A stretch of 64,000 nt of DNA from a virus. A program made the translations under genes and the position numbers. Each line of letters starts with the position of its first letter. Position 1 is the first letter of the stretch. Below, piece by piece: positions 3,854-42,359 of the stretch. The stretch lies in the IMG/VR virus record IMGVR_UViG_3300045988_147927, positions 1 to 64,000 of that record. One strand, 5' to 3'. The notes under the pieces were generated by a model, which was not told the DNA's origin, did no database searches, and was given only the letters and a program-made list of their open reading frames with translations.

Positions 3854-4286
3854 TATACTATCTGTAATATTGATTACTACGAGTACTGTAGGATATGGTG
3901 CTACAGTAGTTGTGCCTAGAGTATCTGTTGTAAGAGTGCCTACAAGTAGACCAACTGTCAATACACCTAAACCTAGTGTAACTAAAAGTACATCTAATAC
4001 ATCTAATAAGAGTAGTAATGGTACTACACCTAAATCTAGTGAGAGTAAGAGTTCTACTGTAGAGAAGAGTTTTAGTGAGAGTAGTGGACGTTCATCATTT
4101 TTTGATAGTATGAGTGGTGCAATTACTGGTTCATGGTTATATAATTCATTATTTAATAATCATTATAGTAGTAACGCTAATGATAATAAAGAATCTCCTA
4201 GTGAGGGTAGTGATAATTCATGTGGATTATGGGATTGGATAACTAATAATATTGAATATTTAAAACGAGTATTATTAGGGGAGTAA
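3831..4286 (+). CDS. secreted/membrane-anchored Ser/Thr-rich protein
   Basis: N-terminal hydrophobic segment ISILSVILITTSTVGYG followed by a long S/T/K/P-rich region. Confidence 0.6.
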   Translation: MSSLKKISILSVILITTSTVGYGATVVVPRVSVVRVPTSRPTVNTPKPSVTKSTSNTSNKSSNGTTPKSSESKSSTVEKSFSESSGRSSFFDSMSGAITGSWLYNSLFNNHYSSNANDNKESPSEGSDNSCGLWDWITNNIEYLKRVLLGE

Positions 4287-4292
4287 TATACT

Positions 4293-4574
4293 ATGAGTAC
4301 TAAAGATGTTACTGATATTATACATACATTATTAAATCTTGATAGTGTTGAGTTAGAGGATTATTGGATATTCAAAGTCGATGATTCTTTATTTGATAGA
4401 GTTGATATAATACTAGAAGAGGATGGTACTGATACATATCGCAGGTATATTTATAAGTGTGTAGATGGTAAGTATTATGAATATGCATACTGGGAAGATT
4501 ACTTTGGGGATAGATATGCTTTTAGTTTTAGGGAAGTTAATAGAGTACCTAAAGTTGAGTATGAGTGGAAATAG
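4293..4574 (+). CDS. hypothetical protein
   Basis: 93-aa ORF. Confidence 0.65.
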   Translation: MSTKDVTDIIHTLLNLDSVELEDYWIFKVDDSLFDRVDIILEEDGTDTYRRYIYKCVDGKYYEYAYWEDYFGDRYAFSFREVNRVPKVEYEWK

Positions 4575-26116: not shown

Positions 26117-26167
26117 ATGAAAATACTACGTAGTGTTGTTGAGATGGAACATATAGATGGGATTTAT
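26117..26167 (+). CDS. tail-completion / virion-morphogenesis protein, exon 1 (17 codons)
   Basis: ATG after TAGAGGT; MKILRSVVEMEHIDGIY. It is followed by an in-frame TAA, which is the first triplet of the inserted element. Confidence 0.6.
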
Positions 26168-26616
26168 TAAGATGTCAAAATAACAATCATGAATTTATTC
26201 ATAAATATTTTTGACAGAATAGTAAGTCTGTAGGGAAACTTGCAGATAGTAGCAACTAGATGTTGTTCAACAAAGAAACTGAATTGCTGGGAACTCCTAA
26301 AGCTAGCTAAACTACAACGTGATATCTATTAATATGATATGGATGTGAATGTGGCGAAAGCAGAGAAAATTAGTTAGATGGTATAAGGTTAAACCCTAAG
26401 TACTGCGATAATGGATAATCAGCAGCCAAGCCCGTGAGGGAAGGTTCAACGACTATTCCTCGTGAGGGAAGTACATTCAAGCGAATGGAAGTGGTTTCGC
26501 CTAAGTCGTAAAAGTGATATGGATAAGATATAGTCTGTGCTTTATTGAAAGATAAAGATGCACGTAGTGGTGCTGGCTAAGTGGTAGCGTACTTAGTTGA
26601 ACGAGCGTTCTCTCAA
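26168..26616 (+). ncRNA. group I intron catalytic core (copy A)
   Basis: This stretch is more GC-rich than its surroundings. It contains AAGATATAGTC (26525-26535), which I recognise as the classical P7 3' strand and which pairs with GACTAT in GGTTCAACGACTAT. It has GNRA-capped hairpins (CCC-GTGA-GGG; TCTGTAGG-GAAA-CTTGCAGA). The hairpin CTTTAT-TGAAAG-ATAAAG (26540-26557) covaries with copy B. Confidence 0.7.
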
Positions 26617-26718
26617 AAATTTCATAGTTATAGTTATATATTTGATAATAGTTCCTATTAGTATTATAATAAAGATATTAGGATTCTTTATTCAGTATGA
26701 GAGGAGGTGTTATCATCT

Positions 26719-27810
26719 ATGAATAAAAGTTTTAAAGTTAGGATATATCCGACACAAGAACAAAAAATATTGTTAGAAAAGACCTTTGGTGCAAACAGGT
26801 TTGTTTATAATTACTTTCTCAACTTAAAAAGTAAGTTGTATGAGTTTTATAAAATAAGAATTAGTTATAATAATTCTTCTAAGATTCTAACTGAGTTGAA
26901 GAAACAAAAAACTTGGTTTAAAGAAGTTGATAGTGTTTCTTTACAACAAACACTTAGAGATTTAGATAGTGCGTATCAAAACTTTTTTAGTAGGAGATGT
27001 AAATATCCTAAATTTAAGAGAAAAGATGATAAAAACTCATATCGTACTAACTCTAATATTAAAATAGATAATTGGTATATAACAGTTCCTAAGGTGGGAA
27101 TGTTACATTTTAGAGATAAAAACAGATTTAGTGGTGTTACTAAAATTTATAATGTAACAATATCTAAGACATCTAGTGGAAAATATTTTGCTAGCATTTC
27201 AGCTGAGGTTGATATCGCAACTTTTGAGAAAAGCAATCAAAATGTAGGTATAGACTTGGGATTGAAAGATTTTGCTATTCTTAATACTGGAGAAAAGATA
27301 CATAATCCTAGAATATTAAAACATCTTGAAGATAAATACAGAAAGTTAGCTAAATCTGTTTCAAGAAAAGTTAAAGGTTCAGTTAATTATCAAAAAGCTA
27401 GGATTAAGTTAGCTAGGTTTCATGAATACATAGTTAATATACGAAAAGATTTTCTACACAAACTATCTACTAATATAGTTAAGACTTATGATATTATGTG
27501 TATAGAAAATCTCAATATTAGTGGTTTAATGAAAAATCGTAGATTAGAAAAATCATTTCAGAATGTTTCATTGTATGAGTTCATATGGATGTTAGAGTAT
27601 AAAGCTAAGTGGTATGGTAAGACTATTTCTAAAGTAGATAGATTTTATCCATCATCACAGTTATGTTCTAATTGTGGTTATAAGAATAAAGAAGTTAAAA
27701 ATCTTAGCGTTCGTGAGTGGGATTGTCCTGAATGTGGAACTATTCATGATAGAGATATAAACTCAGCAATTAATATTTTGCATGAGGGATTACGACTTTT
27801 AGAGATATAA
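26719..27810 (+). CDS. tnpB: TnpB (IS200/IS605 OrfB-type RNA-guided nuclease), apparently intact
   Basis: GAGGAGGTG RBS. N-terminal [13 protein letters not shown]. RuvC residues in [18 protein letters not shown] and [11 protein letters not shown]. Zinc ribbon CSNCGYKN...WDCPECG. Confidence 0.85.
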
Positions 27811-27817
27811 ATATATG

Positions 27818-27948
27818 AATATATAAGTATAACTGTGGGACACATGGGGATAGCCTATTGTCTGGTTGTAAGACTCTTTTAACATAGTATTAAAAGAGCG
27901 AACCATTGGGTAGGAACCTCACTGACTTTGAGTCATAGAGGATGTCAG
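27818..27948 (+). ncRNA. conserved 3'-terminal RNA module of element A (putative omega-RNA scaffold overlapping the intron 3' end)
   Basis: About 130 nt, nearly identical to 32876..33009 and clearly related to 42229..42359. Ends GAGGATGTCAG. The terminal hairpin TGACT-TTG-AGTCA covaries between copies. Confidence 0.65.
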
Positions 27949-28512
27949 ATTACTGTATCTCAACATATGTTAAAGCTAGGTTCTAAAAGGATACAAAAGG
28001 AGTTAGGGAGTCTTTATTATCAAGACTTCCTAATATTTATGGCTGTTACTTTAGCTAAAGAGTTTGAACGTGCTATAGATACACAAAGATATAAAGGTAC
28101 TAAGTGGGCGCCCTTGTCGATTTCTTATTTAACATATAAACAGAGAAAGAATTTATCTCTTAATATATGGGAGGCGACCGGTTATTTAAAGAATAGTATT
28201 ACTGTATTCAAGAAGTTTACTAATTTTATTGCAGTAGGTTTTCAACAAAAACAATATTATCCTAATAGTGGAGCACAGGTAAATATGGTTGCTCGGTATG
28301 TTGAGTATGGTACTAATAGGAATACAGTAAATGGTAAGAAAACAATGCCAGCTAGACCTTTATTTAGACCTATAGCTAGTTATGTTTCTAAACATATATC
28401 AAGGTATTATAAGACTTATCTAAAAGAGATAGATAAACTCAGAAATAAAAAGATACCATACTTATATCTTAGGAATAAGAGTGTTAAAAGGTCATCTAAA
28501 AATAGGAAGTAG
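27949..28512 (+). CDS. tail-completion / virion-morphogenesis protein (Mu gpG / HK97 gp10-like), exon 2
   Basis: KWAPLSISYLTYKQRKN...IWEATGYLKNSI...VGF...YVEYGT...MPARPLFRP matches the W-x-PL...sG-x-L-x-S...PaRpF pattern of tail-completion proteins. There is no start or RBS at the exon boundary. Confidence 0.65.
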   Translation: MTVSQHMLKLGSKRIQKELGSLYYQDFLIFMAVTLAKEFERAIDTQRYKGTKWAPLSISYLTYKQRKNLSLNIWEATGYLKNSITVFKKFTNFIAVGFQQKQYYPNSGAQVNMVARYVEYGTNRNTVNGKKTMPARPLFRPIASYVSKHISRYYKTYLKEIDKLRNKKIPYLYLRNKSVKRSSKNRK

Positions 28513-30160: not shown

Positions 30161-31948
30161 ATGGCTACATTAACAATGTTAAGTCCTGGTGTATACATGA
30201 ATGAGGTTGATAAATCTCAGTATATTACAGATTCCTCTACTTGTATTATAGGTATGGTTGGTGGTGCAAGGTTTGGGCCAGTTGGTGTACCTACACTTAT
30301 TACTTCTCAACAAGAGTTAGTCAAGACTTTTGGTGAGCCTGTTGAGGGTGAGCATGGGTTGTATAGTGCCATGATGGCTCTAGTTCATGCTAGTCAAGTA
30401 ATTTATACTCGTGTTGTAAGAGGTGGAACAAAAGCTACTGCTGGTGTTTTGGGAACTGATAAAATTCTTTATAAATCAGCTGTTATAGGTGATGCTAGTA
30501 ATGGGTTAAAGATTTCTCAAACTGCTTTAACAGGTGGCAAATTCTCCATTACTGTAAAAGATGCACAGGATGTTGAGAAAGAAAAGTTTGAGGATTTAAC
30601 ATTAACGTCCTCAGAAGAAAACTATGTTGAGGCTATTGTAAATTCTAAATCAAAACTAATCAGGGTTGAACTTCAATCAACTGGCGAAATTACTGCCAAG
30701 GATTTCACGTTAGGTGATACTGTTAAAGGTGGTAACACTGGTGCAAATGCACATGCTGGTAAAAAAGGAACTGATAAGATTGTGTTAGAATCAAAATATT
30801 TTGATTCTGAGTTAAATGGATGTTCCGCAGTATTTAGTGCTATGGATGATTTTACTCAAACATTTAATTTACATATCTTAGATGAGAATGGTAATGTTGT
30901 TGAGCAATTCAGTACTTTATCTTTAGACCCTAAATCACCTCGTTTTGTAGAGACTATTATTAATAATGGTTCTATTCGTGTTAATGCTAAGATGGATACT
31001 AATACATCTATTCAATATCATGAGGATACTTTAATCTTTAGTGGTGGTGATGATGGTATTTTAGGTATCACAGCACAAGATGTAATTGGTGATATTAGTG
31101 GTGGTGGTTTACAAAGTTTCTCTAACCCTGAGACAGTTACTATTGATGTATTGACTGCAAGTGGTTGGAGTGATTCCTCTGTAATTAAAGCTGGTTTACA
31201 TATCGTAGAAAATCGTGCAGATTCTATTTTTATTGTAGACCCACCTTTTGGCATGTCTGTTCAAGAGATGATTAATTGGTCTAATGGTAAGGGTTCATAC
31301 ACTAATCAAGGTGGTTTAGATACATCTTATGGTGCATTGTATTGGCCATGGTTACAAATTAGTGATAACTATACTAATAAAAATATATGGTTGCCGCCTA
31401 GTGGGTTTGTAGCTGGTCAGTATGCATATAATGATAAAGTTGGTTTCCCTTGGTTAGCACCTGCTGGTCTTAATAGGGGTAAAATCACAAAAGCTATTAA
31501 TACAGAATATTCACCTACACAGGGTGAACGTGATGCTTTGTATGGACATAGGAATGTTGTAAACTGTATTACTAATTTCATAGGACAAGGTATTGTAATA
31601 TGGGGTAACAAAACTTTACAACGCCAACCTACTGCATTAGATAGGGTAAATGTTCGACGTTTGATGTGTTTCTTAGAACGTAGTATTGCCGCTAAAACAA
31701 GGTATTTTGTTTTTGAGCAAAATTACGATGCAACATGGGAACGTTGGAAAACTCTTGTTGAACCTGTATTGATTAATGCTAAAAATAATGGTGGTTTGTA
31801 TGATTATAAAATTGTGTTAGATGCTACTGCTGAAGATTATGAAAATAATAGGATGCCTATTAGTATCTATGTTAAACCAGTTAAATCTGCTGAGTTTATT
31901 AGTTTGACATACAATATCATGAGTTATAGTGCTAGTTTTGATAAATAA
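30161..31948 (+). CDS. contractile tail sheath protein
   Basis: N-terminal LSPGVYMNEVD, size 595 aa, C-terminal ...WGNKTLQ...DRVNVRRL... pattern, and it is followed by the tube gene. Strong AAGGGGGA RBS. Confidence 0.9.
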   Translation: MATLTMLSPGVYMNEVDKSQYITDSSTCIIGMVGGARFGPVGVPTLITSQQELVKTFGEPVEGEHGLYSAMMALVHASQVIYTRVVRGGTKATAGVLGTDKILYKSAVIGDASNGLKISQTALTGGKFSITVKDAQDVEKEKFEDLTLTSSEENYVEAIVNSKSKLIRVELQSTGEITAKDFTLGDTVKGGNTGANAHAGKKGTDKIVLESKYFDSELNGCSAVFSAMDDFTQTFNLHILDENGNVVEQFSTLSLDPKSPRFVETIINNGSIRVNAKMDTNTSIQYHEDTLIFSGGDDGILGITAQDVIGDISGGGLQSFSNPETVTIDVLTASGWSDSSVIKAGLHIVENRADSIFIVDPPFGMSVQEMINWSNGKGSYTNQGGLDTSYGALYWPWLQISDNYTNKNIWLPPSGFVAGQYAYNDKVGFPWLAPAGLNRGKITKAINTEYSPTQGERDALYGHRNVVNCITNFIGQGIVIWGNKTLQRQPTALDRVNVRRLMCFLERSIAAKTRYFVFEQNYDATWERWKTLVEPVLINAKNNGGLYDYKIVLDATAEDYENNRMPISIYVKPVKSAEFISLTYNIMSYSASFDK

Positions 31949-31963
31949 GGAGGAGTATAATAG

Positions 31964-32524
31964 ATGAGTCAGTTAAACGCAGCTTTTATGTCTATGGATT
32001 CCACTTATGAAGTTCAACGTACCAATAACTTTAGGTTTATCGTTGATTTAAGTGAGTTTTCTAATAATACTTCTTCCTCTAGTGGTGATATTATCGAGTT
32101 GGCTTGTGATAGTACAGGTTTACCTACCGTATCTAATGACCCTATTGAGTTAGATTATGGTAACTCTCAAATCAAAGTAGCTGGTAAAGCTACAACTGAT
32201 GATATTACTGTTGCAGTTAAAGACTTCATTGAGCCTGATGTTGAAAACATCTTATGGCAGTGGAGGATGAAGGTTTATAACCCTAAAACAGGTAAAGTTG
32301 GTTGGGCAAATAACTATAAACGTACTTGTATGATTGTTCAATATGGGCCAAATGGTGAAGTATTGAGGAAATGGCAATGTGATGGTTGTTGGCCAACAAG
32401 TCTTGATTTAGGTGAGCTTGACTATTCAAGTGGTGATAAAAAACAAATTAGTATGAGTTTGTCTGTAGATACTGCATATCTTGTAAGGGATGGACAAAAT
32501 ACTCATATTTATGGTACTGATTAA
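31964..32524 (+). CDS. tail tube protein
   Basis: 186 aa directly after the sheath gene. NNFRFIVDL...ELDYGNSQIKVAGK pattern of T4 gp19-like tube proteins. Confidence 0.8.
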   Translation: MSQLNAAFMSMDSTYEVQRTNNFRFIVDLSEFSNNTSSSSGDIIELACDSTGLPTVSNDPIELDYGNSQIKVAGKATTDDITVAVKDFIEPDVENILWQWRMKVYNPKTGKVGWANNYKRTCMIVQYGPNGEVLRKWQCDGCWPTSLDLGELDYSSGDKKQISMSLSVDTAYLVRDGQNTHIYGTD

Positions 32525-32537
32525 TAGTATCGTTTTT

Positions 32538-32568
32538 AGAGATGTAACATATGTTACATCTCTTTTTT
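32538..32568 (+). terminator. rho-independent terminator
   Basis: Perfect palindrome AGAGATGTAACAT/ATGTTACATCTCT followed by TTTTTT. Confidence 0.8.
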
Positions 32569-32631
32569 GTGTTATAATACTAATATAATATTAATATTAA
32601 TATTATATTTATGTTTAATAAGAGGTGTATT

Positions 32632-32871
32632 ATGGAAGAAAAACAATTAGAGGATTATCAAGTTAGGTTTATCGACGAGTATCGCACGTTATGTGAAAGG
32701 TGTTCTAAACTACATAGTATATTAGTTAAGTATGACGCTGGTACATTAGACTTTTCTCCTAAATGTAGTTCTGAGTTGCTAAGTAGTCAGTTAGAGTATA
32801 TGGAAGGTTATAAGTATATTCTAGAGGTTAGGGCTGAATTAGAAGGTATTGACTTGTCTAAGTATATGTAG
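32632..32871 (+). CDS. conserved phage protein of unknown function (crAss001_48-like pattern)
   Basis: ATG 32632 after AGAGGTG. The RCSKLHSILVKYDAGTLDFSPKCSSELLSSQLEYMEGYKYILEVRAELEGI pattern is one I recall from a widespread phage family. Confidence 0.5.
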   Translation: MEEKQLEDYQVRFIDEYRTLCERCSKLHSILVKYDAGTLDFSPKCSSELLSSQLEYMEGYKYILEVRAELEGIDLSKYM

Positions 32872-33009
32872 TATATTATAAGTATAACCGTGGGACACAT
32901 GGGGATAGCCTATTGTCTGGTTGTAAGACTCTTTTAACATAGTATTAAAAGAGCGAACCGTTGGGTAGGAACCTCACTGACTTAATTAAAAGTCAAGAGA
33001 GGATGTCAG
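32864..33009 (+). mobile_element. solo copy of the IStron 3'-terminal RNA module (orphan omega-RNA-like / right-end remnant)
   Basis: AAGTATAACCGTGGGACACATGGGGATAGCCTATTGTCTGGTTGTAAGACTCTTTTAACATAGTATTAAAAGAGCGAACCGTTGGGTAGGAACCTCACTGACTT...GAGGATGTCAG differs from 27818..27948 by only a few substitutions plus a changed terminal hairpin. No ribozyme core or tnpB is adjacent. Confidence 0.75.
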
Positions 33010-33067
33010 AAAGTGTATATCTTCTCTGATTATCTGCCTTTTACTATTAATAGATATAACACTTAGT

Positions 33068-33106
33068 AAAACACACTTCTATGGTTTAAATAGAAGTGTG
33101 TTTTTA
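33068..33106 (+). terminator. rho-independent terminator
   Basis: Stem AAACACACTTCT / AGAAGTGTGTTT followed by TTTTT. Confidence 0.75.
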
Positions 33107-33125
33107 TATATGTTAATGTAAGGGG

Positions 33126-33154
33126 TTTACATTTTTTGTGATATGTGTTATATT
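33126..33154 (+). promoter_or_regulatory. sigma-A-type promoter candidate
   Basis: TTTACA, 17-nt spacer including TGt, then TATATT. Same architecture as the promoters at 12545, 22598 and 28532. Confidence 0.5.
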
Positions 33155-33160
33155 TTTGGT

Positions 33161-33305
33161 GGGATATTTTTTAGTAAGTGTTCCTTTCTTTTGGGTAGAT
33201 ACATTTAAGCGTATTTGAGCATATTTTAATCCTGTTGAGTAGTTTGATATATTTTTTGCTCCTTTCTTGCAGTTGACACATTGGTTCTGTGTCAACTGCT
33301 TTTTA
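33161..33305 (+). ncRNA. candidate ~145-nt small RNA
   Basis: It lies between the promoter at 33126-33154 and a strong terminator (GCAGTTGACACA / TGTGTCAACTGC plus TTTTT, 33269-33305). There is no ATG in the interval. It has two CU-rich anti-Shine-Dalgarno-like motifs (TTCCTTTCTTTT, GCTCCTTTCTTG). Confidence 0.35.
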
Positions 33306-33544
33306 TTTTGTCATTTTATAGATTGTTTATATTAAATGTCTTATTATAGTTAGTATAAATAGTTATATTTGATATATGTTCTCATTTTTATTTCAGATAG
33401 TTATTATATATAGTTAATCTTGTTATTAATAATATATAATAAATGTGTAAGTACTCAAAGATTCCAGTTCTACATTATACCGTATTGCTAATTAATATAC
33501 AAAGGATATGTAAGGTAGTGTCATATTTAAGTAGAATGGGGGAA

Positions 33545-34024
33545 ATGTCTTTGAATATTATTGAGATGCTTTCTGTTCTAGGTATGAATATCAGTATAAG
33601 TGATGTTTCTATGGCTACGATTTTACTACTAACTATCATTCAGATATCACCAATAGATTTTAATCCACTATCTGTGATTTTATCTATTATAGGTAGAGAA
33701 TTAAATAAAGAGGTTATAGATAGGGTTGAAAAAATTGAAAAGTTAGGTGAGTCTAATAGTAAGGAGTTAGTTAAGTTGTCTTATGACATATCTGAGACTA
33801 GGGCAATAAATTCACGCTCTAGGATTTTGGAGTTTGATGATGACTTATTACATAATGTAGCAAAGTCAAGAGAGAGTTTCGACCACATTATGCTTGATAT
33901 AACTTATTATGAGCATTTTTGTAGGAGGTATCCAGATTTTCACAACCATATAGCTGATATAGCTACATCACATATAGTAGAGACATATAAGAGTAGATTG
34001 TCTAGGAATGATTTCTTAAAGTAG
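33545..34024 (+). CDS. membrane-anchored hypothetical protein (start uncertain)
   Basis: N-terminal hydrophobic segments (LSVLGMNISISDVSMATILLLTIIQ...), then a soluble domain. The track ORF start at 33443 looks too far upstream. Confidence 0.55.
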   Translation: MSLNIIEMLSVLGMNISISDVSMATILLLTIIQISPIDFNPLSVILSIIGRELNKEVIDRVEKIEKLGESNSKELVKLSYDISETRAINSRSRILEFDDDLLHNVAKSRESFDHIMLDITYYEHFCRRYPDFHNHIADIATSHIVETYKSRLSRNDFLK

Positions 34025-40053: not shown

Positions 40054-40541
40054 GTGATTACAAAGATAGTCTTATTACTAGAAATTTAAGTCCTCATCAG
40101 CCTCTATATGCTTTTATAGATTTAAGTATTGATGGGCATAATATATCATATTTCGGTAATAAAGAATTTAATGATTCAGTAATTAGTCTTAATGTGGAAA
40201 GAAAAGGTACTTCTAATCAAGATTTAGCTGGTTCTACTTTTGATATAGAGTTGTATGATGATACTGCTTTAAGAATAGAAGAGCTGTTAGCGAATACTAT
40301 ACCAGCAGGTTCAAATTTTAAGACCGCTAAAGAGTTGAAAGATACTGGTAATAAGGTTACTGATGGTAATATCGAGTGGAAACAACAAGAGGAAGCTAAG
40401 AAAAAAGAGCAGGCAGAGAAGGATAATACATATACAGAGGAAGATGAAAAGAAAGACCCTAATCATAAAGCAGGCACTAAAAAACAGTCTGGTGGTGCAA
40501 CTCAGTCTGGAAATGTTAGGTGTAAATATGGATGGTGTGAT
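40050..40541 (+). CDS. baseplate hub / late-control-D-like multidomain protein, exon 1 (164 codons)
   Basis: TTG start after AGGGGTG. Ends ...NVRCKYGWCD, then an in-frame TAA that is the first triplet of element B. Confidence 0.65.
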
Positions 40542-41028
40542 TAAATGTGCTACATATATTCATAGTTATAGTTATGAATAGGTATGTATATAGCACGTAT
40601 AGTCCATACATCTAGTGATAGGTGTGTGTCGAGTGGTAACACTCGGAGATTCATTGAATTGCTGGAAAGTCCTAAAGCTCAATTAACTACAACGTGATAT
40701 CTAATAATATGATATGAGCGTGAATGGTAGCGAAAGCAGAAAAAATAATTGAGATGGTATAAGGTGAAATAAAAGCTATATCACATATGATATAGTCCTA
40801 AGTACTGAGATAATGGACAATCAGCAGCCAAGCACGTAAGTGAAGGTTCAACGACTATCCTGTGAAGGAGTACGGCTCTAGTGAGTGGGTGAGAATCCCT
40901 TAAATGGAAGTGGTGAAGGTCTTTCAGATAGAAAGATTAAGATATAGTCTGTGCCTACATGAAAGTGTAGGATGCACGTAGTGGTGCTGGCTAGAAGTAG
41001 CGATTCTAGTTGAACGAGCATCCTCTCA
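40542..41028 (+). ncRNA. group I intron catalytic core (copy B)
   Basis: AAGATATAGTC at 40939-40949. GGTTCAACGACTAT. Hairpins CGAGTG-GTAA-CACTCG and CAC-GTAA-GTG. CCTACA-TGAAAG-TGTAGG (40954-40971) covaries with copy A. Confidence 0.7.
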
Positions 41029-41131
41029 TAGAGAGTTTTATGGTTTTATATATATTGAAATTAATCTCCTTTTGTAGTACATTAATAATATAATGTTTAT
41101 TGTTAATGATACGAAAGGGGGTGTAAATCTC

Positions 41132-42224
41132 GTGAATAAGAGTTTTAAAGTTAGGATTTATCCAAATCAAGAACAGAAAGTCTTGATTGATAAGACATTT
41201 GGATGTGCAAGATTCATATACAATTTTATGTTGAATCTGAAACAAAAATTGTATGAGTATCATAATATTTCTTTAGGTTTTTATGACCTATCTAAGATTC
41301 TTACAGAAATTAAAAGACATAAATTGTGGCTTAAAGAAGTTGATAAGTGGGCATTACAAAATGCTTTAAAAGATTTAGATAGTGCTTATAAAAGATTTTA
41401 TAATGGTGGTGGATTTCCTAAGTTTAAATCTAAAAAGCGAGATAAAAACTCCTATCGTACAAATCATAGAATACAGTTAATTGTAGATAATAAGAAAGTT
41501 AAAATTTCCTAAAGTTGGTAGTATTAAGTTCAGAGATAAAAGTAGATTTGATGGAATTACTAAAATTTATAATATCACTATTTCTAGGACATCTAGTGGA
41601 AAATATTATGCTAGTATATCTGCTGAGGTTAATATTGAACATTTTGAGAAAACCAATCAGAGTGTGGGTATTGACTTGGGATTAAAAGATTTCTGTATCT
41701 TAAATGATGGAACTAAGTTTGAAAATCCTAAATTTTTAGTTAGAAATGAAAAGCGACTTAGATTACTTCAAAAATCGTTAAGTCGCAAGATTTGTGGTTC
41801 TAAAAACTATGAAAAAGCTAAGATAAAGTTAGCTAAATTTCATGAGTATATTGTTAATTTTCGTAAAGATTATTTACATAAAATATCGTTATATTTGGTT
41901 AGAAATTATGATATTTTATGTGCAGAAACATTGAGAGTTAAGAATATGGTAAAGAATCATAAGTTAGCTAAATCAATTAGTGATGTTAGTTGGTATGAAT
42001 TTTGTAGGCAGTTAGAGTATAAGTGTCTGTGGTATGGAAAGAGATTTGTACAGATTAGTACATATTTTGCATCATCACAAATATGTTCTAATTGTGGGTA
42101 TAAGAATTCTGATGTTAAAAATCTCAATGTAAGAGAATGGACTTGCTCTAAATGTGGCAGTCATAATGAAAGAGATATCAATGCATCGATTAATATTTTG
42201 CATGAAGGATTAAGAATTATATAA
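41132..42224 (+). pseudogene. tnpB: tnpB with a single frameshift near nt 41490-41510
   Basis: GTG start after GAAAGGGGGTG. The N-terminal frame stops at 41510-41512 (...DNKKVKIS*). The continuation [45 protein letters not shown]...GIDLGLKDF is in the +1 frame. The downstream RuvC and zinc-ribbon motifs are intact. Confidence 0.75.
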
Positions 42225-42228
42225 TTTC

Positions 42229-42359
42229 AGTATATAGAACCATAGGACATATGGGGATAGCCTACTGTCATAGTGTAAGACGTATAGTGAATCTGTTTCA
42301 TTATGTGTAATTATTGGGTAGGAACTTCGTCACTTTAATGAGTGGTGAGAGGATGTCAG
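42229..42359 (+). ncRNA. 3'-terminal RNA module of element B
   Basis: GGACATATGGGGATAGCCTACTGTC...TTGGGTAGGAACTTCGTCACTTTAATGAGTGGTGAGAGGATGTCAG is homologous to 27818..27948. Confidence 0.6.

What the first reader, a model, noticed from the sequence alone, without database searches (positions are those of the whole stretch)
32864..33106. Orphan copy of the IStron 3' RNA module downstream of the tube operon: a stand-alone guide RNA gene?
About 130 nt at 32876-33009 are almost identical to the 3' module of element A (27818-27948). The match includes the terminal GAGGATGTCAG. There is no ribozyme core and no tnpB next to it.

The only substantial difference is the last hairpin (TGACTT-AATTAA-AAGTCA versus TGACT-TTG-AGTCA), which keeps its pairing. 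Decay would not be expected to preserve the stem, so this argues for continued function.

It lies right after the stop codon of 32632..32871. It is followed by a unique 3' flank (AAAGTGTATATCTTCTCTGA, from 33010) and then a strong terminator (33068-33106). It would therefore be transcribed as scaffold + novel ~20-nt guide + terminator.

It could be a deletion remnant of a third IStron. Alternatively it could be a trans-acting guide that retargets the intact TnpB of element A to a new sequence (host, competing phage or plasmid). Its near-identity to A, while A and B have diverged, favours recent functional coupling to A.
Basis: partly seen in the sequence, partly recalled or inferred. Interest (0 to 1): 0.75.

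Follow-up and report, generated by a model that had tools for sequence, protein, structure and literature searches.

The report
Leftover IStron right end (guide-RNA module)
A 130-base piece of a jumping intron-transposon (its guide-RNA-encoding right end) sits alone behind a small phage anti-defence gene; it is most likely a leftover fragment rather than a purpose-built guide RNA gene, because it has no target, varies freely and occurs in related phages that lack the partner nuclease copy.

Summary
Window 32877-33009 is a third copy of the right-end/omega-RNA module of the window's IS605-type IStrons (BLAST E 2e-49; covariance model 131.6 bits). No ribozyme or tnpB lies beside it. It follows the stop codon of a small ORF and precedes a strong terminator.

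The "stand-alone retargeting guide" reading is not supported:
- About 25 closely related phage contigs carry the same solo module at the same junction. Five of the six checked lack element A.
- The guide has no TAM-flanked match in the window, IMG/VR, 185,579 species genomes or JGI metagenomes.
- The only module-less allele found has ATTTT, not TTGAT/TTTAT, before the target.
- The module is the most polymorphic part of the intergenic region (13% versus 3.4% segregating sites), including hits at family-invariant bases (terminal G>T).
- One lineage has deleted the guide and the terminator.
- One contig carries an added tnpB 3' fragment at this site.
- The "compensated" hairpin also occurs in an intact IStron.

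Best reading: a solo right-end relic of an IStron. It is probably transcribed passively in the 3' UTR of a Sequestin-family gene and exchanges sequence with intact copies by recombination. Residual trans activity with TnpB cannot be excluded.

The parts
32538..32563 (+). Intrinsic terminator directly after the tail-tube gene (stop at 32524). It separates the tube operon from the small-ORF unit.
   Evidence: 11-pair stem followed by TTTTTTGTG.
32568..32576 (+). Extended -10-like motif TGTTATAAT upstream of the small ORF. Inferred promoter of the unit that contains the module.
   Evidence: Read directly from the sequence. Function is not tested.
32632..32871 (+). Small ORF (79 aa) of the crAss001_48 / 'Sequestin' family, PF21825. 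The module lies in its 3' UTR.
   Evidence: Pfam E 6e-18; labelled Sequestin; phrog_774. 12% of sites segregate among 15 haplotypes.
32849..32877 (+). Sigma-70-like match TTGACT-17-TATATT that ends at the left edge of the module.
   Evidence: 10 of 12 positions match. The number of such sites in the region is not above the shuffled expectation (9 found, 10.7 expected), so this is weak evidence.
32877..33009 (+). Solo right-end / omega-RNA module of an IS605-type IStron. Helices: 32888-32892/32898-32902; 32909-32914/32964-32969; central hairpin 32929-32937/32945-32953; terminal CCTC/GAGG 32972-32975/32999-33002, enclosing TGACTT/AAGTCA 32978-32983/32990-32995. It ends in the family-invariant GAGGATGTCAG.
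   Evidence: BLAST. (covariance model, 131.6 bits). (consensus structure, 5 of 17 pairs with compensatory changes)..
33010..33029 (+). Flank that would serve as the guide (AAAGTGTATATCTTCTCTGA). It is the transposon/target junction of the ancestral insertion.
   Evidence: same junction in all syntenic loci. No TAM-flanked match anywhere. Deleted in L109.
33068..33106 (+). Strong intrinsic terminator that closes the small-ORF/module unit.
   Evidence: z = -6.3. C-G to T-A compensatory change at 33072/33100 among haplotypes.
26168..27948 (+). Element A, an intact IStron. TAM TTTAT at 26163-26167; group I core at 26222-26557; tnpB at 26707-27810; module at 27825-27948. It splits a 204-aa gene (exons 26117-26167 and 27949-28512).
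40542..42359 (+). Element B, a diverged IStron (about 70% identical to A) whose tnpB is frameshifted. TAM GTGAT at 40537-40541.

Best explanation
The 133-nt element is the isolated right end of an IS200/IS605-family IStron. It contains the TnpA-type subterminal hairpin, the complete omega-RNA scaffold and the 3' splice site. The left end, the ribozyme and tnpB are gone.

Shown: the right junction (GTCAG|AAAGTG) is an exact transposon/target junction. From this I infer that the module arrived by a genuine IStron insertion, and that the rest of the element was then lost. This could have been an internal deletion or an illegitimate recombination that ended in the AT-rich spacer just after the tnpB stop codon.

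Inferred: the module is carried passively in the 3' UTR of a Sequestin-family anti-defence gene and is transcribed up to the terminator at 33068-33106.

Shown: it is not maintained as a guide gene.
- It is more polymorphic than the neighbouring non-coding DNA.
- It carries mutations at positions that are invariant in intact copies.
- It has lost its guide and terminator in one lineage.
- It persists in genomes that lack element A.
- It has no TAM-flanked target.

Shown or strongly indicated: its demonstrable activity is as a patch of homology that exchanges sequence with intact IStron copies. Polymorphisms are shared in mosaic fashion between paralogous copies. In one contig, 140 nt of tnpB 3' end identical to a relative's element A has been copied in, at the cost of the small ORF.

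Possible but untested: where an intact TnpB of the same subfamily is present, as in this window, an omega-RNA with the guide AAAGTGTATATCTTCT could form. I expect it would have nothing to cut.
For: Family boundaries and the normal situation
- A filled versus empty sheath-gene site gives TTGAT|TAAG...GTCAG|flank. Element A's empty site is TTTAT|ATCACTG. These define the TAM, and they define GTCAG as the right-end terminus.
- The orphan ends exactly at GTCAG in every copy.

Distribution
- About 25 contigs carry the solo module at the same junction: L004, L019, L021, L087, L089, L090, L091-L100, L102, L103, L106, L108, L110.
- None of them has a full IStron at this site.
- Element A is absent in 5 of 6 orphan-bearing loci.

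Relaxed constraint
- 18 of 136 module columns segregate among 15 haplotypes, against 15 of 435 in the downstream intergenic DNA.
- Changes occur at family-invariant bases. The terminal G is T in L092/L102 and L106. L092 has a TG insertion in helix 1. L098 has A>G in GGGGATAGCC (checked against the invariant columns).
- L109 has a 131-nt deletion that removes 33010-33140, which is the guide plus the terminator.

Recombination with intact copies
- In L016/L026 the small ORF is cut after codon 37 and joined to tnpB codons 323-365. That stretch is identical to L019's element A as far as the hairpin, which is of the orphan type.
- The variants TAAGTATAAC, GCGAACC/GCAGACC and the AATTAA loop are shared in different combinations between orphans and intact A copies.

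Deletion series elsewhere in this phage group
- L127 is a mini-IStron without tnpB.
- L018 carries a second, independent solo module.

No target
-.
- The only module-less allele (L088 and relatives) reads AATTTT|AAAGTG.
Against: - The scaffold is structurally complete. Most of the polymorphisms fall in loops or keep G-U or Watson-Crick pairs. This is what selection on the RNA would also produce. It is equally expected if the variants are imported from functional paralogues.
- An intact, ISDra2-like TnpB with the RuvC motifs is encoded in the same window.
- The module has a promoter-like site in front of it and a terminator behind it.
- Two independent solo modules, this one and the one in L018, begin within about 3 nt of each other, just outside the structured part. 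That is unexpected for random deletion end points. It hints either at selection for a whole module or at a site-specific mechanism.
- No full-length progenitor at this site was found, so the deletion is inferred and not observed.
- The L016/L026 evidence rests on one 4.3-kb contig.
Confidence: 0.75

Rival explanations
1. Trans-acting homing guide. The solo module is transcribed and processed, then loaded onto a TnpB made by an intact IStron elsewhere in the phage genome (element A in this window). The complex cuts module-less alleles of the same locus in co-infecting relatives. The module, together with the linked Sequestin allele, is then copied in by recombinational repair. This is the logic proposed for protein-less PATEs (PMC10055086).
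For: - The scaffold is complete and shows covariation.
- An intact TnpB is present in the window.
- The guide 33010-33036 is invariant in 15 haplotypes.
- A terminator lies downstream.
- A module-less allele with a perfect 20-nt match exists in nature: L088, L104 and relatives.
- Two solo modules share a left boundary.
Against: - The module-less allele has ATTTT where TTGAT or TTTAT is required.
- The orphan persists without A in 5 of 6 loci.
- The terminal G>T variant circulates.
- L109 has deleted the guide.
- The module shows no excess conservation.
- 27 invariant nucleotides is not significant when 3-7% of sites segregate.
Confidence: 0.12
2. Retargeting guide. The new flank programmes TnpB-A against a host, plasmid or competing-phage sequence.
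For: The only support is a 22-nt match to the guide in the terminase gene of an unrelated 39%-GC phage (L064/L065).
Against: - The L064/L065 match is preceded by TTGTA, lies antisense to the gene, and is near chance expectation for the size of the collection (my estimate).
- T[GT]AT plus the 16-mer gives 0 hits in 185,579 species genomes.
- The 19 hits to the 18-mer are scattered over unrelated taxa and none has a TAM.
- The metagenome hits are either the locus itself or lack a TAM.
- No seed match next to a TAM exists in the window.
- The flank is simply the local intergenic DNA, which is also present in the module-less allele.
Confidence: 0.03
3. Mobile mini-element. The roughly 130-nt module is a discrete unit that was inserted as such, with TnpA acting on an internal pseudo-left end, rather than what remains after a deletion.
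For: - The L018 solo module sits exactly after a canonical TTTAT when compared with the empty L011 site.
- Its left boundary, (ACAT)AATTATAACC, matches the orphan's, (TAT)AAGTATAACC.
- Intact elements carry TATAT just before this point.
- The orphan is preceded by ATTAT, a 4-of-5 match to TTTAT.
Against: - The 5' hairpin of the module (CCGTG/CATGG) does not resemble the left-end and right-end TGA.T/A.TCA hairpins. That these are the TnpA-binding hairpins is my inference.
- The L018 junction has a 5-nt ambiguity.
- The window's module-less allele does not give a clean TAM|target empty site.
- Only two cases are known.
- No tnpA was seen in any locus.
Confidence: 0.12

Closest known systems
IS200/IS605-family IStrons (CdISt1 / CdiIStron type of Clostridioides difficile; bioRxiv 10.1101/2023.11.20.567912)
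   Same: - Elements A and B have the full architecture: TTGAT-type TAM, a group I intron at the 5' end, tnpB, and a right end that encodes the omega-RNA and the 3' splice site.
- The orphan is homologous to that right end over its whole length and ends at the same terminal nucleotide.
   Different: - The orphan lacks the left end, the ribozyme and tnpB. It is a fragment, not an element.
- These copies sit in roughly 130-230-kb phage contigs from metagenomes rather than in a bacterial chromosome.
PATEs (palindrome-associated transposable elements) with IS605 or IStron ends, which carry an omega-RNA but no protein (PMC10055086; fig. S3 of 10.1101/2023.11.20.567912)
   Same: It is a protein-less derivative that still encodes an omega-RNA. 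Any activity would need TnpB supplied in trans.
   Different: PATEs keep both the left and right ends and remain mobilisable. Here no left end is detectable, so excision and re-insertion, and therefore the donor-joint target, are not expected.
ISDra2 TnpB-omega-RNA (PDB 8H1J, 8EXA)
   Same: - TnpB-A aligns over its full length with ISDra2 TnpB (E about 1e-90).
- It uses a TTGAT/TTTAT motif.
- The scaffold is about 125-130 nt and is immediately followed by the guide.
   Different: - Here the scaffold lies wholly downstream of the tnpB stop codon and doubles as the intron 3' end.
- No biochemical data exist for this subfamily.

Membership tests
IS200/IS605-family IStron (complete element) | Group I intron catalytic core at the 5' end | tested here: not met
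   No Intron_gpI match at E<=5 in 32500-33600. Positive control: element A at 26222-26557, 68.6 bits.
IS200/IS605-family IStron (complete element) | tnpB gene | tested here: not met
   tblastn with TnpB-A hits only 26707-27810 and 41132-42221. No ORF of that kind lies near the orphan.
IS200/IS605-family IStron (complete element) | Left end (TAAG/TAAA... plus hairpin) abutting a TTGAT/TTTAT TAM | tested here: not met
   BLAST of A's, B's and L055's left ends finds nothing at the orphan. The sequence upstream is ATTAT, a 4-of-5 match, followed directly by internal right-end sequence.
IS200/IS605-family IStron (complete element) | Right end with a subterminal hairpin, ending in the family-invariant GAGGATGTCAG | tested here: met
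TnpB omega-RNA (functional guide RNA) | Scaffold homologous to the region 3' of an intact tnpB, with a conserved structure supported by covariation | tested here: met
   131.6 bits to the family covariance model. 5 of 17 consensus pairs show compensatory changes across 19 members.
TnpB omega-RNA (functional guide RNA) | Cognate TnpB encoded in the same genome | tested here: inconclusive
   Met in this window: element A is intact and ISDra2-like. However, A is absent from 5 of 6 orphan-bearing relatives within the 10-kb loci available. Other IStrons may exist elsewhere in those roughly 200-kb genomes.
TnpB omega-RNA (functional guide RNA) | A TAM-flanked DNA target that matches the guide | tested here: not met
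   None in the window, the fetched loci, IMG/VR, GTDB species genomes or JGI metagenomes. The module-less allele has ATTTT.
TnpB omega-RNA (functional guide RNA) | Transcription, 5' processing and loading onto TnpB | not testable with these tools
   Only promoter-like and terminator signals are available.
PATE (non-autonomous IS605 mini-element) | Both left-end and right-end hairpin ends flanking a short ORF-less core | tested here: not met
   The right end is present and no left end is detectable. By contrast, L127 keeps intron/left-end-side sequence plus the right end.
Domesticated stand-alone guide RNA gene | Guide and scaffold conserved above the background across genomes | tested here: not met
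   13% of module columns segregate against 3.4% in the flank. The terminal G is mutated in one circulating haplotype. The guide is deleted in L109.

The most novel reading that the evidence does not exclude
Solo omega-RNA modules may be discrete, selectively retained units in these large phages. Using a TnpB encoded by any intact IStron in the same genome, the module behind the Sequestin gene would cut the alternative allele of the locus during co-infection. That allele carries an unrelated 1.57-kb insertion, lacks the module and has a perfect 20-nt match to the guide. Cutting it would drive inheritance of the module's own allele. In effect this would be a protein-less homing element guarding an anti-defence locus.
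Probability: 0.08. Interest if true: 0.65.

Novelty: new member of a known kind. Interest (0 to 1): 0.28.

Why it matters
As found, this is an ordinary product of transposon decay. Its main value is as a caution: a well-folded, near-identical copy of a guide-RNA scaffold with a terminator behind it is not evidence of a guide gene.

It also documents several other points:
- IS605-type IStrons are abundant and in flux in a group of roughly 130-230-kb phage contigs from metagenomes.
- Their right ends outlive the rest of the element and recombine with intact copies.
- The region around a Sequestin-family anti-defence gene is a hotspot for several TnpB-type insertions.

If the minority reading were true, and solo omega-RNAs were used in trans for allele drive, it would extend the TnpB homing model to fragments that can no longer transpose.

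Tried and rejected
- INPHARED phages: near and distant DNA searches with the locus and with the module found no match. These phages are not in GenBank phage records.
- Rfam gathering scan of the whole window: nothing. It even missed the group I intron that a regional scan found. No Rfam family covers the module.
- Guide searches with up to 5 mismatches in the window: only noise (the output was over-long).
- 22-nt guide match in a terminase gene of an unrelated phage (L064/L065): rejected as chance, with the wrong motif TTGTA.
- 19 genome hits and 2 metagenome hits to the 18/20-mer: scattered taxa and no TAM.
- L088 was first taken for a clean empty site. Closer reading showed that it carries a different 1.57-kb insertion 20 nt upstream and an unalignable 12-nt stretch in place of the module. 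No clean TAM|target empty site could be reconstructed.
- Strict concerted evolution between A and the orphan: concordant in the window and in L019 but discordant in L103. The claim was softened to mosaic exchange.
- Exact-protein look-ups for TnpB-A, both start codons: not on record. The sheath look-up gave only a repeat-broken 5-kb contig.
- The 444-aa ORF of insertion X: no Pfam, PHROG or PDB sequence hit and no significant BLASTP similarity to TnpB-A. My impression that it is TnpB-like remains unverified.
- The sigma-70-like site in front of the module: not above the shuffled expectation.

Full report
THE OBSERVATION

The window is a 31%-GC myophage-like genome segment. The genes near the finding are:
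- tail sheath, 30161-31948;
- tail tube, 31964-32524;
- a small ORF, 32632-32871;
- a roughly 535-nt non-coding stretch, then baseplate and tape-measure genes.

Positions 32877-33010 match 27822-27949 at 91.8% over 134 columns (E 2e-49). A covariance model built from 19 family members finds exactly three copies in the 64 kb:
- the orphan, 32880-33009, 131.6 bits;
- element A, 27825-27948, 129.6 bits;
- element B, 42232-42359, 113.3 bits.

No group I intron and no tnpB lie next to the orphan. The variant hairpin, the unique flank and the strong terminator at 33068-33106 (z = -6.3) are as described.

One correction is needed. The tube gene has its own terminator at 32538-32563. The module therefore belongs to the transcription unit of the small ORF.

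WHAT THE PARENT ELEMENTS ARE

Element A (26168-27948) is a complete IS200/IS605-type IStron.
- Its group I core is at 26222-26557 (Rfam Intron_gpI, 68.6 bits).
- Its tnpB (26707-27810) aligns over its full length with ISDra2 TnpB (8H1J/8EXA, E about 1e-90). The GIDLG, IENL and HDRDINSA motifs are present.
- It splits a 204-aa gene.

The family boundaries come from filled and empty sites.
- In the sheath gene, L055 (filled) compared with L052 (empty) gives GTTTTGAT|TAAGTG...GAGGATGTCAG|TAATGC.
- Relatives that lack A read GGTATTTAT|ATCACTGTATC.

So the TAM is TTGAT/TTTAT (GTGAT for B), and the right end terminates at GTCAG.

Element B (40542-42359) is about 70% identical to A, and its tnpB is frameshifted.

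The module itself is a conserved structured RNA. It has:
- a 5-bp hairpin;
- a long-range helix, CCUAUU/GGUAGG, closing a variable domain that contains a central hairpin;
- a terminal CCUC/GAGG helix enclosing the TGACU/AGUCA hairpin.

Five of the 17 consensus pairs show compensatory changes. The orphan keeps every helix, so it is a complete scaffold.

RELATED GENOMES

INPHARED has nothing similar. IMG/VR, JGI metagenomes and ENA/Logan assemblies hold many relatives.

About 25 contigs carry the solo module at exactly the same junction, GTCAG|AAAGTGTATATC. They have 96-100% identical neighbouring proteins. None has a full IStron at this site.

More distant clades have a sheath about 89% identical and a small ORF 65-70% identical. 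They have no module, and their intergenic region is unrelated. Homology to the window stops exactly at the small ORF's stop codon.

The locus is a mobile-element hotspot.
- L089 has another intact IStron whose right end abuts the small ORF's ribosome-binding site.
- L088, L105, L107 and L111 (and partly L104) lack the module. They carry instead an unrelated 1.57-kb insertion with a 444-aa ORF, placed in the 3' end of the small ORF.
- In that allele the flank is 99.5% identical to the window, but the 5 nt before AAAGTG are ATTTT. This is not a TTGAT-type TAM.

IS IT MAINTAINED AS A GUIDE GENE?

Four lines of evidence say no.

(i) Coupling to A. Ten loci share the identical SAM-lyase protein. 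Six carry the orphan, and only one of those six (L103) has A. The other five have the uninterrupted target gene.

(ii) Conservation. Among 15 distinct haplotypes, 18 of 136 module columns segregate. This compares with 15 of 435 in the downstream intergenic DNA and 4 of 59 between the module and the terminator. Several changes hit positions that are invariant across intact family members, which themselves are as diverged as A and B:
- the terminal G of GTCAG is T in L092/L102 and L106;
- L092 has a TG insertion in helix 1;
- L098 has A>G in GGGGATAGCC.

(iii) The guide. L109 has a 131-nt deletion that removes 33010-33140, the whole guide and the terminator. A different sequence now lies next to GTCAG.

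(iv) Targets.
- No second copy of the guide with 4 or fewer mismatches exists in the window.
- No TAM-adjacent site has 2 or fewer seed mismatches.
- No copy exists in the fetched loci outside this locus itself.
- In IMG/VR there is only the locus itself plus a chance-level 22-nt match in an unrelated terminase gene, preceded by TTGTA.
- T[GT]AT plus the 16-mer is absent from 185,579 species genomes.
- The 18-mer gives 19 scattered hits without a TAM.
- Metagenome hits are the locus itself, the ATTTT allele, or two matches without a TAM.

THE HAIRPIN ARGUMENT AND THE NEAR-IDENTITY TO A

The AATTAA-loop hairpin is not a compensated change that arose in the orphan.
- The intact element A of L103 has the same hairpin.
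- Most family members have TGACTT-AA-AAGTCA-TGAGAGG. The orphan differs from this only by a 4-nt loop insertion.

Variants such as TAAGTATAAC versus TAATTATAAC, GCGAACC versus GCAGACC and the loop type occur in different combinations in orphans and in intact A copies. This points to recombination between paralogous copies.

The clearest case is L016/L026. There the small ORF is cut after codon 37 at a GGT microhomology and joined to tnpB codons 323-365. The following stretch is identical to L019's element A as far as the hairpin, which is of the orphan type.

I read this as repair of the orphan locus using A as the template. It rests on one 4.3-kb contig. The junction is not at a repeat, so a misassembly is unlikely.

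Recombination therefore explains the near-identity to A without any functional coupling.

ORIGIN

The right junction coincides exactly with the family's right-end terminus. This implies a true transposition junction, and hence an ancestral IStron at this site (inference).

The left boundary lies in the AT-rich spacer 8-10 nt after the position of the tnpB stop codon.

Derivatives with other deletion extents exist in this phage group:
- L127 keeps intron sequence and the tnpB ribosome-binding site but has lost the ORF.
- L018 has a second, independent solo module. It sits right after a canonical TTTAT when compared with L011. Its left boundary is within about 3 nt of the orphan's.

That shared boundary is the one observation that a random-deletion model does not explain well. 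It leaves room for a site-specific mechanism, or for selection on an intact module. I carry both as minority readings.

MECHANISM AND VERDICT

Most likely (0.75) this is a solo right-end relic. It is transcribed passively in the 3' UTR of the small ORF and stopped by the 33068-33106 terminator. The terminator is under selection in its own right, as shown by the C-G to T-A compensatory change at 33072/33100.

In this window an omega-RNA with the guide AAAGTGTATATCTTCT could still form with TnpB-A, but nothing suitable to cut is known.

Protein-less omega-RNA carriers acting in trans have been proposed for PATEs (PMC10055086). IStron-ended PATEs are described in C. difficile (10.1101/2023.11.20.567912). 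This fragment lacks the left end that defines those elements. It is a new example of a known kind of decay product, and it is of modest interest.

The small ORF belongs to PF21825 (crAss001_48 / 'Sequestin'). Recent work describes that family as an immune-signal sponge. This fits the hypervariability of the locus.

Noticed in passing
window 32632-32871: The small ORF upstream of the module belongs to PF21825 (crAss001_48 / 'Sequestin'), a phage family reported to sponge immune signalling nucleotides. It has its own extended -10-like motif (TGTTATAAT, 32568-32576) after the tube terminator. 12% of its sites segregate among 15 near-identical phages.
   Followed up: partly
L088 630-2250 (minus strand); also L105, L107, L111, partly L104: The alternative allele of the locus has a 1.57-kb insertion at TTGACTT in the 3' end of the small ORF. 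It encodes a 444-aa protein with no Pfam, PHROG or PDB sequence hit and has a roughly 270-nt structured-looking 3' tail. It looked TnpB-like to me by eye (IENLDFKD, NPAWTS), but this is unverified. Every module-less allele seen carries this insertion or a remnant of it.
   Followed up: partly
L089 1-700: Another intact IStron (tnpB plus a module 84% identical to the orphan) ends exactly at the ribosome-binding site of the small ORF (GTCAG|GAGGTGTAACATGG). In that phage the small ORF is therefore bracketed by two omega-RNA modules.
   Followed up: no
L018 3271-3395 (compare L011 1405-1460): A second, independent solo module lies 35 nt downstream of an intact IStron's right end. It is inserted after a canonical TTTAT, with a 5-nt ambiguity (ACATA). 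Its left boundary is almost the same as that of the window's orphan.
   Followed up: partly
L127 about 2400-2715: A mini-IStron without tnpB. Part of the group I intron and the tnpB ribosome-binding site are joined directly to the last codons of tnpB and the module.
   Followed up: no
window 26168-27948 and L102-L111 near 4275-4350: Element A is a recent or rare insertion. 9 of 10 relatives with an identical SAM-lyase protein have the uninterrupted 204-aa gene (TTTAT|ATCACTGTATC; one mismatch to A's guide).
   Followed up: yes
window 41080-42224: Element B's tnpB is split by a frameshift near 41480-41510. Within this window only A encodes an intact TnpB.
   Followed up: partly
L109 9400-9420 (= window 33010-33140): A 131-nt deletion removes the presumptive guide and the terminator directly after the module. 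A new sequence (ATATGTGTTATATTTTTGGT) now lies next to GTCAG.
   Followed up: yes
L054 / L055 (sheath gene), L051: Other relatives carry an IStron inside the tail sheath gene, at TTGAT after codon 540. L051 has a distant TnpB (34% identity) inserted in the sheath gene. Essential structural genes are being used as insertion sites.
   Followed up: partly
L064 3829-3850, L065: There is a 22-nt exact match to the orphan's guide inside the large terminase gene of an unrelated 39%-GC phage. It is preceded by TTGTA and lies on the antisense strand. I judged it to be chance.
   Followed up: yes
window 1-64000 (technical): The Rfam gathering-threshold scan of the whole window returned nothing. A regional scan then found Intron_gpI at 26222-26557 with 68.6 bits, above the 50-bit gathering score. 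This looks like a filter loss on the large AT-rich input.
   Followed up: yes
window 33269-33299: A second strong terminator-like hairpin (12 pairs plus a T-run) lies in the same intergenic region, about 160 nt after the first. Its purpose is unknown.
   Followed up: no
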